From the NCBI GenBank assembly GCA_031422435.1, contig JANPLU010000010.1, positions 1-17,763 on the forward strand: 17,763 bases of DNA, in the 5' to 3' direction. Shown here in pieces: positions 3,001-9,000 of the stretch; the first letter of the stretch is position 1; every line of letters starts with the position of its first letter. Source of the DNA: Acaryochloridaceae cyanobacterium VAR_48_metabat_390 (GTDB taxonomy: Bacteria; Cyanobacteriota; Cyanobacteriia; Thermosynechococcales; Thermosynechococcaceae). Made by a program: the position numbers.

Positions 3001-6000
3001 AATCGGCCTCACAAAATAATGTCATTCGCCTTAGTTTTCAGCCCTTAAAGCGCAACGGAAGTCCCTAAATTCAACACAGTTTGGGTGGATACAGGCACCT
3101 CAGGAAAAATAGTAACAGCTTGAGCGGGGTTAGCAGAACGCGGTCGTGTGTACCACCAGTCTTGAGCTTGAGCAGAAAGCCGATCTGTGTAGAGTGTCAG
3201 CAGCGTTGCTTCAGATGTGTTGCCATAGCCCACTAGCTCCACACTGTAGGTGGGATAGCGCTTAGCCGCCATATCCGGCACAAAGCGATTGCCAATGCGT
3301 CGCCAGCTTGGTTCTTTACTGTGCCACTGGATGCGGCAGCAGGGCCACGGGAGCTGCTCTCGATCAAAAAGACGACAGCAAGGTCCAATAATGCGATAGC
3401 GGAACTGTCCCCCTGGACTATGCAAAATAGCGTCACTGGGTAAAGGATGATGGCTCAAACTAACCAAGGGTAAACCCGTCCTTCGAGCATAGGCAAAACC
3501 CATGATAGCGCTCTACTGTTCTGATGTTGTAGCCAGAAATGTTTCGACTTGGGCTGCTGTGGGCTGGGCGGCGATCGCCCCTGCCCCTGTCGTTGTCAGT
3601 GCCCCAACCGCACTGGCATAGCGCACAATCTGCCTTACCGCTTCAGGATTTTTAAGGTCTGGCTGCTGGCAAAGCTGATGGAGTAAACCCGCCGTAAACG
3701 CATCCCCAGCTCCCGTTGTGTCTATCACCTTAACGGGAAAGGCAGGCACCTTTCCCGTAATTCCCTCTAGCCAGTAGCGACAGCCTCGCTCACCCGCCGT
3801 CACAAAAACACCCTGAACCTGGGGGTAACGCGCTACAACAGCTTGAGGATCTGAGGACTCAAAAAACAGCTTGGCTTCTTCGTCGGTCAGCTTAATGAAA
3901 TCGGTTTGGGCTAAAACCTCATGGATTAGTGAGGGTGCCTCCGCTGGGTTAAGCCAAAAGACAGGTCGCCAGTTTAGGTCTACCAATCGTTTTAGTCCAT
4001 GGGCTTTAGCAAATGCTAGCGCCCGATACATTGCCTCACGACTGTTGGGGTAGGCCAACGCTAGAGTCCCTAACACTAGAAACTGAGCGGATTGAAACAG
4101 GGCTTTAGGAAGTTGAGAGGCTTCAAGCTTGGCATCTGCAAAAGCGGTGGTGTCGGTGGTGCCGAAGCCTGCAAAGTGGCGATCGCCGTCCAAGGTTCTT
4201 GTCACAAAGACCGTGCGCGTAGGTGCACCAGGATGACGCTGAAGCCCCTCCAAATTAACGTCTAAAGCATCTAACATCTGCATTAGCGAATCCCCTGCGG
4301 CATCTTGTCCAACGCAGCCTAAGTACGCAGCAGAGGTACCCAAATGCGCTAACGCACAGGCCACGTTCGCAGGGGCACCACCCGGATATGCGGTCCAAGT
4401 CTTAACGGCTTCTAAAGGTTGCCCAGGCTGATCGGCAAGATAGTCAAAGAGAAGTTCACCCACACAGAGAACTTGAGGAATAGCCATTGATATTAGGCCT
4501 TGGATACGTCGTGTAGACACTGCCTATGAACGCGAGGGAAACAGCATTAAATGTCTGCTTTGCAGACATTTTAGGATTTAGAGGCAGTCATTTCTATCGA
4601 TAAAAAACCGCGTTTCCCTATTCTGTTTAGCCTAAACGCCAGCGAAAAGTTAATATAAAAAAGTTATATTCATATGAGAATTTTACATGCAGACCCCTAG
4701 CACCGTTCGGCTTAGTTATAAAACTCGAAAGTCTATTGGAAACCTTTTAGGAATTCTACTGGGGCTGATTTCGAGTACAGAATTTTTGATGGTCTTATCT
4801 TTGAACCAAGTACCCGCCCAAGCTCAGCCAAGTTCTTCCCTACAAAAGCCTTTACCATCCATTTCTTCACCATCCTACAAAACGCCGCTGGCAAACCCCG
4901 CGTCAGGCTTTATTCTGACGGATAATACCCCTATCAAATTAAAGTTCAAAGAAACCATCTCATCTAAAACCGCAGAAGAGAATCGACCGATCGAATTTGA
5001 CGTTGCAGAAGATATTGTGGTTCAGGGCGTTATCGTCATTGCGAAGGGCACAAGTGCTAAGGGCATGATTGCCGAGGTGAAGCGTGCCAAAATGTTAGGC
5101 CGCAAAGGCAAAATCAGCATCATTCTCAAAGAGGTGGCACTGGTTTCTGGAGAACGCGTTTCGCTCCGCGCAAGTCAGACTCAGGGCGGTGGATTGTCTG
5201 CCGGAACCATTGCACTTTCAGCGATCATTACGCCCATCTTCTTGCTAATGGGCGGCAAAGAAGCAAAATACACCGCAGGAACCGAATTTACTGCTTTTGT
5301 GGATGGCGACTATGCACTAGATCCATCTAAGTTTATTCAGCGCGGGTCTCGTTGAGCCTGTCTGTAGACATCCTGATTGCAATCGTTCACCCCTTTAGGC
5401 AAAAGTAGCGCAACCGTAACAGAATCTAGACAGCAGGGTGTTTTAAGATCTTCTTAAGATTGAATAAAAGCAATCATAACGTTTACCCCACTCAACGTTT
5501 ACTCGGCGTAAAGATTCGCAATCATGGTCAATGTTCAACCGCAGCGTACCCATAGCTCTAGTGCCCCAACCCTCAAAGCCTCTGAGATAGCTTCCCTTAA
5601 AAACCAGCGCCAATCCCTAGACGAATACTATCAGCAAGTCAAGCAAATTATTGTGGCGCGACAAAGCGCCATTACAGGGCTGTTGCCTGCAAGTACTGCC
5701 GTCAACGCTCATGGAGACTATACCGATGCTTGGGTTCGCGACAACGTTTACAGCATTCTGGCAGTTTGGGGGCTGGGGATAGCCTACCGAAAAGTAGACG
5801 ATGATCAAGGCCGTGCCTACGAACTAGAACACAGCGTTATCAAGCTTATGCGGGGACTGCTCACCGCCATGATGAAGCAGGCTCCTAAGGTCGAGTGCTT
5901 TAAGAAGACACAGGATCTTTTAGATGCGATGCACGCTAAATACGATACCCATACGGGTAATGCGGTGGTGGGTGACCATGAGTGGGGGCATCTGCAACTA

Positions 6001-9000
6001 GACGCAACTTCGCTATACCTACTGATGCTGGCTCAGATGACGGTGTCTGGGTTAGAAATTATTCAGACCCTAGATGAAGTCGATTTTGTCCAGAATCTGG
6101 TTTACTACATTGGTCGAACCTATCGCACGCCAGACTACGGCATCTGGGAGCGTGGCAACAAAATTAACCACGGCAACCCAGAACTCAACACGAGTTCTTT
6201 AGGCATGGCAAAGGCAGCCTTAGAAGCTGTTGATGGCCTGAATCTGTTTGGACTGCGGGGAGGTCCCTTGAGCGTGATTCATGTGTTGCCCGATGAAGTG
6301 GCGCGATCGCGCACCACCCTCAGCTCCCTATTACCACGAGAATCTAACTCAAAGGAAATCGACGCGGCTTTACTGAGCGTTATCGGCTTTCCGGCCTTTG
6401 CCGTAGAAGATCGGGGCATTGTAAAGCGCACCCGCCAGAAAATTCTCGATAAGTTAGCCGGAAACTATGGCTGTAAACGCTTTTTACGGGACGGACATCA
6501 GACTGTCCTCGAAGACACCAGCCGCCTGCACTACGAACCCGAAGAACTTCAGCAATTTGAGCATATTGAAAGCGAGTGGCCGCTCTTTTTTACCTACCTG
6601 ATCTTAGATGGGCTGTTTCGGGGAGACACTGCCCAAGTTGAAACCTTTCGCCAGAAAATTCAGCCTTTGTTTGTAGAGCGCAACGGCTGGTCTCTGTTAC
6701 CGGAGCTGTACTACGTCCCCGCCGAAAAAATTGCGGCTGAAAAAGCTGCCCCCTGTAGCCAAACGCGCTTACCCAACGAAAACATTCCGCTGATTTGGGC
6801 ACAAAGTCTCTATATTCTGGGCGAACTGATTGCCGAAGGCTTTATTGCTTTAGGCGATGTAGACCCGCTAGGGCGACATCTGCGGCTGGGTCATGCCCCT
6901 GCCCCTGTGGTGCAGATTGCGCTGCTAGCAGAAGATGAAACGCTTCAGCAAGAGTTACGTGCCTTTGGGGTAGAAACCCAAACCCTTCAGCAAATTGAGC
7001 CGATCCAGGTTTTAGATGCAGAGGCGTTAACGCGCGCCTACAGCCATTTAGGTCAAAACCGTCAGCTTGGATTGAGCGGACGACCTATTCGTCGGCTGCG
7101 GAGCCTGACCACCGCCTGCCTCTATCGGTTCCAGGGACAGACTAAGGCATTCTTGCCTGCCTTTCTCGACCAAACCCAGTTTTACCTCACCCTGGACTAT
7201 CACTTTTTAGTAGACCAACTCAAGACCGAACTAACCTATATTCGTCGTCATTGGTCGCATCTCGGGCGACCCACGGTAACGCTGCTGCTCACTAAAACAA
7301 TGCTGTTGGGGGGGCGTAGACCGCTTCTGCATTTATTTCAAGAGCTGAACAGCGGCGAATGTAATGGGGTAAAGGTGAAGCTGGGTCCCCTCCAGCAGCT
7401 TCTGCTGATGGCTGGGGTTGAGCGGATGGATGCGCTACGAGAGTTTGAGTTTGTTCCCTCTGACCGGATGGATCCTAGGCAAGTTTCAATCCACTTACCC
7501 TTAGACCCTGACAACTGTAAACCGCTCACGTACATCCTAGAGATGAGTTTAGAGCGGGAAACCAATATTCCTCTTTTGCTTAAGCGACTTAAGCCGTCTA
7601 CCAACCTTTACGAACAGGTGGAGCTGCTGCAAACGCTCAGTCACCTCAAGGGTTTAGCCTTTGATACAGGGCTGGGTCAACGCCATGAGTCCGTCACGGT
7701 TCAAGATTTACTGAACGAGGTCTACGACAAGGCAGGAGAACTGAGGCTCTGGAGCATTATCCGGCGAGTCGCAGGGCTATTGGACAAGGTGGATATTACC
7801 CTTTCAGATTCTCTGACCCATATTTTGGTGCGGCAGCGGCAGGTGGCGGTAGGCAAATCCTACAGTTCTGCGTCACTCATTTCGCAGCCTATGTCGCATT
7901 TTGAAATCATGGAAAAAATTGCGGTGTTCTGCCGAGAAGATATCCGCGATCGCGCCCTTACCCAAGAAATCATCATTTATCTCAATCTGCTGCTGAAGGC
8001 AGAACCCAAGCTGTTTGATGGGTTGCTCACGCTTCGGGTTGGCTACTTTATTTTGCTGATGATCAGCGAACTGGCAAGTGAGCATCATCTTACCCAAGAT
8101 GATGCCTATGAGCAGTTGATGAACCTTAGTCCCTTTGAAGTCAAAGAACGGCTCCGCAAGGCGTTGATTGACTATGAGATGCTAAATCAAGAGCTATTGA
8201 GTCAAGAGTCTTTGCACCTACGCAGCCCTCAACAGTCGATTGAGTGGATTGTAAAACCGGAAAGCAATGCGGTAGAAGAACAGCCAGGAAGTAGCTGGCA
8301 CCGCAAGCGCGAACTTCAGGGGATGCTGAACCGCCTGCCACCTCAGTTTTATCCGCGCGTGTGGCAATTGCTGAAGCACTGTAAGGGCATCATTATTGGG
8401 GATAAGTTAGAACGGCGTAATCGTCTCGACAGCAAGGCGATTTTGTCAGAAATGACCCCTGGTGAAACCAACTTTGCGCTTCGCATTGAGCATCTGCTCA
8501 ACAAAATTAGCGCACCCCAGTATCGTCAGCTCAATATTGAAACCCTGATGGAATTGGCGGCGATTGTGGAAACCAACCCTACTTTTTATCTAGAAGATTA
8601 TTTGGTGATGGATGTACTGATTGGTCACGCGGTGCGGCTGGCTTATCTGGAACAGTTTGAGGAACGGGGCGATCGCTACGATGAGTACAAAAGCCAAGCC
8701 TGGGACGACTTTTACGATAGCTCGCCGCTGCGGTGCGCACAGTACATCGCAGCCGCACTAAAATACCTTACCCAAATGGGAGCTGAGGTGTCAGGTATGA
8801 GCGTTTGACACTTTATAGAATTCGCCCACCAGATACAGCGATCCACACAGGACTTTCAGCGGAGCTGAAGATGGCAATACGCCTTGAAGCTGCGTTAGCC
8901 CTTCCCTAAGAGTTGAGGCGATCGCACAGGACTCTAAACGAGGGCAAATGGAGTGTGCTAAGTCAGCCAGTTGCTGAGGGTCTGCGCTGCTATGTTCTGG

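What a model noticed while it worked through the whole genome (the two positions that open the first line are those of the whole stretch)
5524..8808. Stand-alone full-length homologue of the animal phosphorylase-kinase alpha/beta regulatory subunit with both GH15 cataly [...]
g00117 (1,094 aa) aligns over about 1,000 residues at 38-40% identity with the alpha regulatory subunit of animal phosphorylase kinase (PhK), no other solved protein matches it, and the two glutamates that the 2024 cryo-EM study names as the intact but silent active site of the alpha D1 glucoamylase-like domain (Glu185 in GIWERG, Glu371 in LLPELY) are both kept. Boldest reading: the enigmatic PhK alpha/beta scaffold is an old, self-sufficient glycan-acting enzyme that works without any kinase in cyanobacteria, so its true substrate can be sought in a bacterium and the animal subunits derive from such a gene. 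New if true: a prokaryotic model and an ancestral function for the least understood [...]
Evidence so far: swissprot.tsv: the 5 best hits are all PhK alpha (Drosophila, human, rabbit), 38.4-39.6% id over 1,144-1,181 columns, query 32-1050, E 4e-246 to 2e-236. pfam.tsv: Glyco_hydro_15 E 8.6e-95 (31-840), KPBB_C E 4.8e-102 (853-1087, hmm 2-235 of 238). PDB sequence search call 101: only 2 distinct sequences at E<=1e-5, PhK alpha 8jfk_M (E 4e-243) and beta 8jfk_B (E 5e-204); no bacterial or fungal glucoamylase. Residue alignment call 104 (query 26-453 on 8jfk_M 5-430, E 3e-162): GIWERG and LLPELY identical. relatives.tsv: KPBB_C in 7 of 9 genus and 19 of 47 order genomes, 33.9% of the phylum, 1.0% of Bacteria, 0 Archaea. 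PMC10978961 (passages read, call 103): D1-alpha has Glu185/Glu371, no activity [...]
(Added by a program. Inside this text positions count along the whole contig: contig position 1 is position 1 of the stretch shown here. "Call 12" and the like, gene names such as g00115 and contig names such as C1 are that model's own, and its searches are not shown. The text may have been shortened before it was handed on; [...] marks where a part breaks off. The agent that wrote the report below was given it as the finding of a first reader that could run no searches.)

Follow-up and report, generated by a model that had tools for sequence, protein, structure and literature searches.

The report
Bacterial relative of phosphorylase-kinase scaffold
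This cyanobacterial gene encodes a full-length relative of the large, enzymatically silent subunits of animal phosphorylase kinase; it most likely cuts glucose off stored glycogen, and it keeps an active-site tyrosine that the animal subunits have lost, which may explain their silence.

Summary
Confirmed: window 5524-8808 encodes a 1,094-aa protein matching human phosphorylase-kinase alpha and beta over all five domains, with both catalytic glutamates. The family is already labelled in databases, and this scan found it twice before on other DNA. Evidence for an active glucose-releasing GH15 enzyme of glycogen/maltodextrin breakdown: 35 of 43 gammaproteobacterial loci have glk, malQ, glgB or glgX within 1 kb; a MalQ fusion exists; alpha-glucan phosphorylase is missing in 12 of 38 glycogen-synthase genomes that carry it versus 0 of 18 that do not. 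The GH15 tyrosine that contacts the catalytic base (Y66) is kept in 64 of 64 intact bacterial rows and in early-diverging fungi, but in 0 of 12 holozoan alpha-like rows and not in human alpha: a testable reason why the human site is silent. Against: no such context in 87 cyanobacterial loci; activity untested; tyrosine mapped by motif only. Direction of transfer is unresolved. Two key older papers were not readable.

The parts
5524..8808 (+). ORF of 1,094 aa (P0001), five-domain homologue of phosphorylase-kinase alpha/beta; ends GMSV (no CaaX cysteine); 3' end overlaps convergent folC by 18 nt
5599..6882 (+). Domain 1 (aa 26-453): GH15 (alpha/alpha)6 barrel, the most conserved part (mean column consensus 0.70, 122 of 428 columns >=95% among 64 bacterial rows)
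5710..5742 (+). HGDYTDAWVRD loop (aa 63-73): Y66, W70, R72, D73, the GH15 subsite -1 motif; six residues shorter and without this Tyr in human alpha
   Evidence: residue roles from PMC12446779 passages, mapped by motif and spacing
6139..6156 (+). GIWERG with E209, predicted general acid (= human alpha Glu185)
6478..6501 (+). RFLRDGHQ (aa 319-326): R319, D323 invariant; H325 is mostly Tyr in holozoan alpha and co-varies with Y66
6694..6711 (+). LLPELY with E394, predicted general base (= human alpha Glu371)
6889..7509 (+). Domain 2 (aa 456-662, boundaries approximate): partial GH57-like barrel, weakly conserved (0.44), probably non-catalytic
   Evidence: 9jlr GH57 amylopullulanase Z 12.5, rmsd 6.0, 172 aligned
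7510..8784 (+). Domains 3-5 (helical; KPBB_C at aa 853-1087), boundaries approximate

Best explanation
The protein is a cytoplasmic GH15 exo-alpha-glucosidase of storage-glucan breakdown. Domain 1 binds the non-reducing end of glycogen chains or maltodextrins; E209 protonates the glycosidic oxygen, E394, held by Y66, activates water, and free glucose is released (inverting mechanism, inferred from the family). Glucokinase then makes glucose-6-phosphate for the oxidative pentose-phosphate/Entner-Doudoroff routes. It runs beside glycogen phosphorylase and can replace it. Domains 2-5 (a decayed GH57-like barrel and helical domains) likely serve glucan binding or oligomerisation (inferred). Early-diverging fungi keep the same complete site. 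In holozoans the loop carrying Y66 was shortened or replaced, a CaaX end was gained, and the fold became the scaffold of phosphorylase kinase; this is the proposed reason why human alpha, despite both glutamates, showed no activity. Shown: homology, fold, motif conservation, gene context, co-occurrence. Inferred: activity, substrate, mechanism, role of domains 2-5, cause of silence.
For: All of Y66, W70, D73, Q158, D160, W208, E209, R319, D323, H325, E394, W425 are kept in 64 of 64 intact bacterial rows (R72 63 of 64). Gammaproteobacterial context: 35 of 43 loci have glk, malQ, glgB or glgX within 1 kb, neighbours named by NCBIfam/Pfam; arrangements X-glgB-glgX (13 loci, gaps 8-38 nt), zwf-pgl-edd-glk-eda-X-malQ, glgB-X-glgX-malQ, X-glk with overlapping stop/start, glgC-GH57-malQ-x-X, spread over separate branches. 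A GH77 MalQ-PhK-like fusion, 8 cluster members. glgA in 38 of 40 carriers vs 18 of 40 non-carriers. Phosphorylase found in 18 of 18 glgA-positive non-carriers but only 26 of 38 glgA-positive carriers (Fisher p 0.006, overstated by kinship); none at E<=0.01 in 5 of 5 carriers held mostly or wholly on one contig, control 12 of 14. The own genome has glk, malQ, glgB, glgC, GH57, zwf and GlgP. Y66 in 6 of 7 named fungal rows (the seventh lacks its N-terminus), 0 of 12 holozoan alpha-like, 0 of 11 beta-like, absent in human alpha and beta. PMC12446779 (passages): the alpha1-alpha2-loop Tyr bonds the catalytic base in GH15 enzymes and lies 7 residues before the subsite -1 Asp in two of them, as Y66 does before D73.
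Against: No activity data. 0 of 87 cyanobacterial loci, this window included in kind, have a glucan gene or glk in the flanks held; the functional context comes from proteobacteria at about 38-50% identity. 8 of 43 gammaproteobacterial loci have no such neighbour. The residue after the acid is Arg (R210), where dextran dextrinase has an Asp that binds subsite +1, so specificity may differ from glucoamylase. PMC12446779 warns that conserved glutamates do not fix the mechanism. Y66 was matched by motif and spacing only; no profile search reached a characterised GH15 enzyme by sequence. Human alpha has another Tyr (Tyr37) two residues from the aligned position and a Tyr at the H325 position, either of which might substitute. 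In glucokinase-less Synechococcus elongatus about 90% of secreted glucose depended on the sucrose route (PMC10256809 passages); PF00723 rings in that species but I did not show the hit is this family. Five bacterial-type proteins also lack the Tyr.
Confidence: 0.72

Rival explanations
1. An active GH15 enzyme with another chemistry or substrate: a transglucosidase that remodels glycogen, or a hydrolase of a small alpha-glucoside (trehalose, isomaltose, glucosylglycerol).
For: GH15 holds retaining transglucosidases with the same two glutamates (PMC12446779); nearest non-PhK fold is isomaltose glucohydrolase (Z 32.6); faint NCBIfam match to an archaeal trehalase far below cut-off (E 2.5e-4); Arg after the acid; neighbours include anabolic glgB.
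Against: Tight coupling to glucokinase in several lineages implies free glucose; loss of phosphorylase only in carriers fits polymer breakdown; no trehalose or glucosylglycerol gene recurs among the neighbour clusters.
Confidence: 0.15
2. A non-catalytic glucan-binding scaffold or allosteric partner of glycogen enzymes (GlgB, GlgX, MalQ, Glk), silent like the human subunits.
For: Human alpha with both glutamates is inactive on maltose, isomaltose and glycogen (PMC10978961); 640 residues beyond the catalytic domain are kept; degenerate bacterial copies exist.
Against: Near-invariance of the whole subsite -1 set, including Y66, in 64 bacterial rows while domains 2-5 drift; a scaffold would not explain the missing phosphorylase.
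Confidence: 0.1
3. Regulatory subunit of a bacterial phosphorylase-kinase-like complex acting on glycogen phosphorylase.
For: Whole-length structural likeness to alpha/beta; a kinase-fold DUF4032 gene lies nearby in 10 of 45 loci clustered; the own genome has GlgP and 12 kinase matches.
Against: 13 of 40 gammaproteobacterial carriers show no phosphorylase of either type; no CaaX end; one copy only, no alpha/beta pair; no recurring Hanks-type kinase neighbour in the clusters examined.
Confidence: 0.03

Closest known systems
Human phosphorylase kinase alpha (PHKA1; PDB 8jfk, 8z5m) and beta (PHKB)
   Same: Five-domain fold over the whole length (TM 0.81-0.84); both glutamates as in alpha; 40% identity.
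   Different: Keeps the HG[DN]Y loop and Tyr; His where alpha has Tyr301; no CaaX; shorter linkers (query 882-921 vs human 963-1050); single copy; gene context of glucan catabolism.
GH15 inverting glucohydrolases: Kribbella isomaltose glucohydrolase (5z3a), Thermoanaerobacterium glucoamylase (1lf6), Arthrobacter glucodextranase (1ug9)
   Same: (alpha/alpha)6 barrel (Z 32.6, 29.6, 26.9), two glutamates, Y-x3-W-x-R-D motif.
   Different: 15-19% identity; no N-terminal beta-sandwich, four extra C-terminal domains; Arg after the acid.
E. coli ETT2 pkgA (ECs3736), the bacterial single-domain homologue cited with Pallen 2003
   Same: GH15-type domain noted in print as related to phosphorylase kinase (PMC3977695, PMC2808357 passages); an E. 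coli ORF that is probably this gene matches at 27% over aa 58-356.
   Different: Single domain, distant, in a secretion-system cluster; not the full-length family.
Archaeal glycogen-cluster GH15 glucoamylase (Sulfolobus)
   Same: Intracellular GH15 with a catabolic glycogen phenotype when deleted (PMC11046441 passages): the functional analogy proposed here.
   Different: Ordinary GH15 architecture; not shown to be a close relative.
Early-diverging fungal 'phosphorylase kinase alphabeta' proteins (Synchytrium, Chytridium, Blastocladiella, Parasitella, Ramicandelaber, Linderina, Rozella)
   Same: Complete site with Y66 and H325 equivalents, no CaaX.
   Different: Longer, several with an ILEI insert; no characterisation found in my searches.

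Membership tests
Phosphorylase kinase alpha/beta regulatory subunits (as a sequence family) | GH15-like D1 plus D2-D5 with KPBB_C, whole-length homology | tested here: met
Phosphorylase kinase alpha/beta regulatory subunits (as a functional subunit) | C-terminal CaaX farnesylation motif (PMC10978961 section 8) | tested here: not met
   ends GMSV
Phosphorylase kinase alpha/beta regulatory subunits (as a functional subunit) | Paired alpha and beta paralogues | tested here: not met
   one match in the own genome at E<=0.01
Phosphorylase kinase alpha/beta regulatory subunits (as a functional subunit) | Bound gamma kinase and calmodulin | tested here: inconclusive
   12 Pkinase matches in the genome, none in the window proteins scanned; binding and calmodulin not tested
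Phosphorylase kinase alpha/beta regulatory subunits (as a functional subunit) | Glycogen phosphorylase present as target | tested here: inconclusive
   present in the own genome; not found in 13 of 40 gammaproteobacterial carriers
GH15 inverting alpha-glucoside hydrolases | (alpha/alpha)6 barrel | tested here: met
   model aa 24-441 on 5z3a, Z 32.6, rmsd 3.4, 340 aligned
GH15 inverting alpha-glucoside hydrolases | General acid and general base glutamates | tested here: met
   E209 and E394 = human Glu185/Glu371; 64 of 64 rows
GH15 inverting alpha-glucoside hydrolases | Subsite -1 Tyr, Trp, Arg, Asp of the alpha1-alpha2 loop | tested here: met
   Y66, W70, R72, D73; spacing as in TtGA and AgGD; by motif, not by atom-level superposition
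GH15 inverting alpha-glucoside hydrolases | Acidic residue after the general acid (subsite +1; Asp672 in dextran dextrinase; Glu in glucoamylases is recalled) | tested here: not met
   R210; bears on specificity, not on family membership
GH15 glucoamylase (EC 3.2.1.3) | Trp of the alpha3-alpha4 loop forming subsites +2/+3 for alpha-1,4 chains | not tested
   feature; no residue-level alignment obtained
GH15 glucoamylase (EC 3.2.1.3) | Release of beta-glucose from alpha-1,4 glucan ends | not testable with these tools
   needs an assay

The most novel reading that the evidence does not exclude
The bacterial and early-fungal proteins are the still-active form of the phosphorylase-kinase scaffold: a five-domain glycogen glucosidase that gives an undescribed, phosphorylase-independent route of bacterial glycogen breakdown. 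Holozoans switched it off by losing one tyrosine-bearing loop while keeping both glutamates, and rebuilt it into the controller of the competing phosphorolytic route; putting the loop back would wake the human alpha domain.
Probability: 0.4. Interest if true: 0.85.

Novelty: new variant of a known kind. Interest (0 to 1): 0.64.

Why it matters
[quoted passage not shown] This family supplies soluble single-chain models, a likely substrate class and a one-residue hypothesis that can be tested with three point mutants. It also suggests how some glycogen-making bacteria manage without a phosphorylase, and a possible unrecognised hydrolytic glycogen route in many cyanobacteria. The gene itself is one of thousands already labelled by homology.

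Tried and rejected
Cyanobacterial neighbourhood as a clue: no glucan genes (0 of 87); pfkB and folC flank it in only 2 of 14 relatives' short loci. A recalled link to Anabaena all1058/susB: the paper seen lists all1058 without identifying it and no sucrose synthase recurred among neighbours; dropped. A first reading that half the carriers lack phosphorylase was an artefact of a strict threshold; corrected to 13 of 40. Eukaryotes nested in cyanobacteria was rejected as unsupported: the tree with bacteria as one clade had a 16.7 higher log-likelihood, p-AU 0.856. Single origin of holozoan alpha+beta: not rejected, not shown (p-AU 0.305). Sequence bridges to characterised GH15 structures failed. 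No phage match, no viral contig. The metagenome scan for the MalQ fusion returned only plain MalQ loci. No RNA holder listed. Promoter, terminator and repeat scans at chance level. Atlas search did not name P0135. A homodimer prediction for domain 1 was never run, so dimerisation is untested. Pallen 2003 was not held; Carriere 2008 was not read.
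Full report
Observation. Window 5524-8808 (+) is one open frame of 1,094 aa, single copy in a 99.99% complete 3.7-Mb genome. Its only PDB sequence matches at E<=1 are human phosphorylase kinase (PhK) alpha and beta; Pfam gives GH15 and KPBB_C. E209 and E394 align with Glu185 and Glu371 of alpha, which PMC10978961 (passages; section 8) calls an apparently intact site without activity on maltose, isomaltose or glycogen. The model (93-row alignment, pLDDT 92.8) superposes on alpha and beta over the whole length; the next folds are GH15 hydrolases covering domain 1 only. Domain 2 folded alone resembles a partial GH57 barrel (Z 12.5), in line with the paper's remark on a degenerate glucanotransferase-like domain.

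Distribution. 7,199 of 8,000 scored candidates matched, many already named 'phosphorylase kinase alpha/beta subunit' or 'glycoside hydrolase family 15 protein'. In the phylum 83 of 301 genomes matched; 7 are weak hits, of which the 5 examined are a separate ~438-aa single-domain family, leaving 76. In samples around a Saccharospirillum genome 29 of 401 (order) and 11 of 401 (class) matched. Named carriers include Reinekea, Marinomonas, Cellvibrio, Abditibacteriaceae and Trueperaceae. Eukaryotic representatives that carry names are early-diverging fungi, Rozella, Ichthyophonus and animals; 'Clim' as Corallochytrium is recalled; P0135 is an unnamed eukaryotic transcript.

Context. In the window the neighbours are an unknown 222-aa ORF, a PfkB kinase and folC, conserved only in the closest relatives. 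None of 87 cyanobacterial loci (some with short flanks; two are unnamed bacteria with cyanobacteria-like neighbours) had glk, malQ, glgB, glgX, glgC or GH57; a divergent WecB/TagA glycosyltransferase recurs in 30 of 88. In Gammaproteobacteria 35 of 43 loci have one of these genes within 1 kb (L052 left out as a duplicate of L134). The arrangements differ between branches of the protein tree: X-glgB-glgX, zwf-pgl-edd-glk-eda-X-malQ, glgB-X-glgX-malQ, X-glk with gaps of -4 to 51 nt, glgC-GH57-malQ-x-X. One cluster of 8 members fuses GH77 MalQ to a shortened PhK-like chain with the full site.

Co-occurrence. Of 40 gammaproteobacterial carriers 38 have a glgA-like match, against 18 of 40 non-carriers (the first 20 listed of each sample). 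Phosphorylase of either type was found in all 18 glgA-positive non-carriers but not in 13 of 40 carriers, 12 of them glgA-positive, including 8 of the 13 X-glgB-glgX genomes; five carriers held mostly or wholly on one contig stayed blank at E<=0.01 while the control rang in 12 of 14. The losses fall in about four branches, so the nominal p of 0.006 overstates; completeness figures were not given for these handles. This fits replacement of phosphorolysis by hydrolysis plus glucokinase, and is hard to square with a regulator of phosphorylase. The window's own genome has GlgP, glk, malQ, glgB, glgC and a GH57, with no GlgX found.

Active site. PMC12446779 (passages) lists for GH15 enzymes a Tyr of the alpha1-alpha2 loop bonded to the catalytic base, followed by Trp, Arg and Asp at subsite -1. 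P0001 has Y66-x3-W70-x-R72-D73. In alignment A4 Y66 is present in 64 of 64 intact bacterial-type rows (24 of them partly unnamed and grouped by tree position; 2 degenerate rows were counted apart and lack it), 6 of 7 fungal rows (one partial), P0135, and the distant short family (6 of 6), but 0 of 12 holozoan alpha-like rows (6 named, 6 placed by tree and C-terminus) and 0 of 11 beta-like rows. Human alpha has a six-residue deletion there with Gln opposite Y66. H325 changes to Tyr in step: among 332 fetched proteins of at least 900 aa, 276 have Tyr with DGH, 12 no Tyr with DGY, 34 lack the W-x-R-D motif, 10 show other combinations. CaaX-like ends appear in most holozoan rows and in none of the fungal rows shown. 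That a Tyr48-to-Phe change nearly abolishes activity in isomaltose glucohydrolase is recalled; I saw only the title of that paper and the existence of the Y48F structure. Caveats: mapping is by motif and spacing; human Tyr37 or Tyr301 might stand in; R210 differs from the usual acidic residue.

Phylogeny. FastTree on domain 1 made bacteria one clade; IQ-TREE nested eukaryotes in bacteria, but forcing bacteria together gave a better likelihood (p-AU 0.856), so the root is open. On 928 columns, unrooted, eukaryotes are one group (94) outside the core cyanobacterial clade (95) but on its side of the tree, away from most proteobacteria (93) (43 of 103 rows used). Picocyanobacterial copies group with the proteobacterial side. 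A holozoan alpha+beta clade is neither shown nor rejected. A cyanobacterial donor is therefore not established; a bacterial-type, complete site as the ancestral state is the simplest reading because bacteria, fungi, P0135 and the outgroup share it.

Literature. Ten searches listed no paper on the full-length bacterial family or on the missing Tyr. Bacterial single-domain homology is in print through E. coli pkgA and Pallen 2003 (passages of PMC3977695 and PMC2808357). A 2024 review of prokaryotic alpha-glucan enzymes has no 'phosphorylase kinase' in the first 300,000 of 445,374 characters. Passages of PMC2639635, PMC6716455, PMC13156569 and PMC10256809 were read. Pallen 2003 was not held and Carriere 2008 was not seen; either may list these homologues or discuss the Tyr, and no supplements were read (the supplementary figures of PMC10978961 may bear on the site). 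Two earlier notes of this scan reached the same enzyme reading on other genomes; I had stated mine before opening them.

Verdict. Real, correctly described, database-labelled but uncharacterised. It is a member of the PhK alpha/beta sequence family, fails the tests for a working PhK subunit, and most likely works as a GH15 glucose-releasing enzyme of glycogen breakdown (0.72). The new and testable points are the phosphorylase complementarity and the loop-tyrosine explanation for the silent human site.

Noticed in passing
L031:3539-4861, L032:5161-6477, L033:5595-6911, L034:4654-5967, L035:4834-6138: A separate ~438-aa single-domain GH15-like family with the full Y-W-R-D and two-Glu site, seen in cyanobacterial genomes where the long protein was not found; mutual exclusion not properly tested.
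   Followed up: partly
P0151, P0188, P0314-P0317: Bacterial-type full-length copies with a decayed active site (loop Tyr lost in five, other motifs altered), sister to intact copies: a possible independent bacterial parallel to the animal pseudoenzyme subunits; hosts unknown.
   Followed up: partly
P0265 and cluster members P0304-P0310: GH77 MalQ fused to a shortened PhK-like chain; host unknown.
   Followed up: partly
P0140, P0143, P0160: Fungal and Rozella homologues carry an ILEI domain inserted before the C-terminal domain.
   Followed up: no
30 of 88 cyanobacterial loci, e.g. L071:6673-7425, L037, L042: A WecB/TagA/CpsF glycosyltransferase gene lies divergently just upstream, also in picocyanobacteria whose copy groups with proteobacteria.
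   Followed up: partly
L051, L052, L131-L137, L139: A kinase-fold DUF4032 gene lies within three genes downstream in 10 loci.
   Followed up: partly
G071:C1:2013849-2014418 (L044); G299 C86 and C46: A broken copy in one 3.8-Mb cyanobacterial genome, and two full copies in another.
   Followed up: no
own genome: No GlgX-type debranching enzyme found, while a GH57 protein (C112) is present.
   Followed up: partly
L111: The Abditibacteriaceae copy sits inside the cyanobacterial clade, suggesting transfer or misbinning.
   Followed up: no
window 2175-2921 (-): Uma2-family protein with a C-terminal run of QRADAEA-like repeats.
   Followed up: no
window 12174-14056 (-), 3-1259 (-): S-adenosylmethionine decarboxylase next to spermidine synthase; the ORF at the window start looks like adenosylhomocysteinase (recalled, not scanned).
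   Followed up: no
window 4687-5355 (+): 222-aa ORF upstream on the same strand, no Pfam or NCBIfam match, found beside the gene in 1 of 14 relatives' loci.
   Followed up: partly
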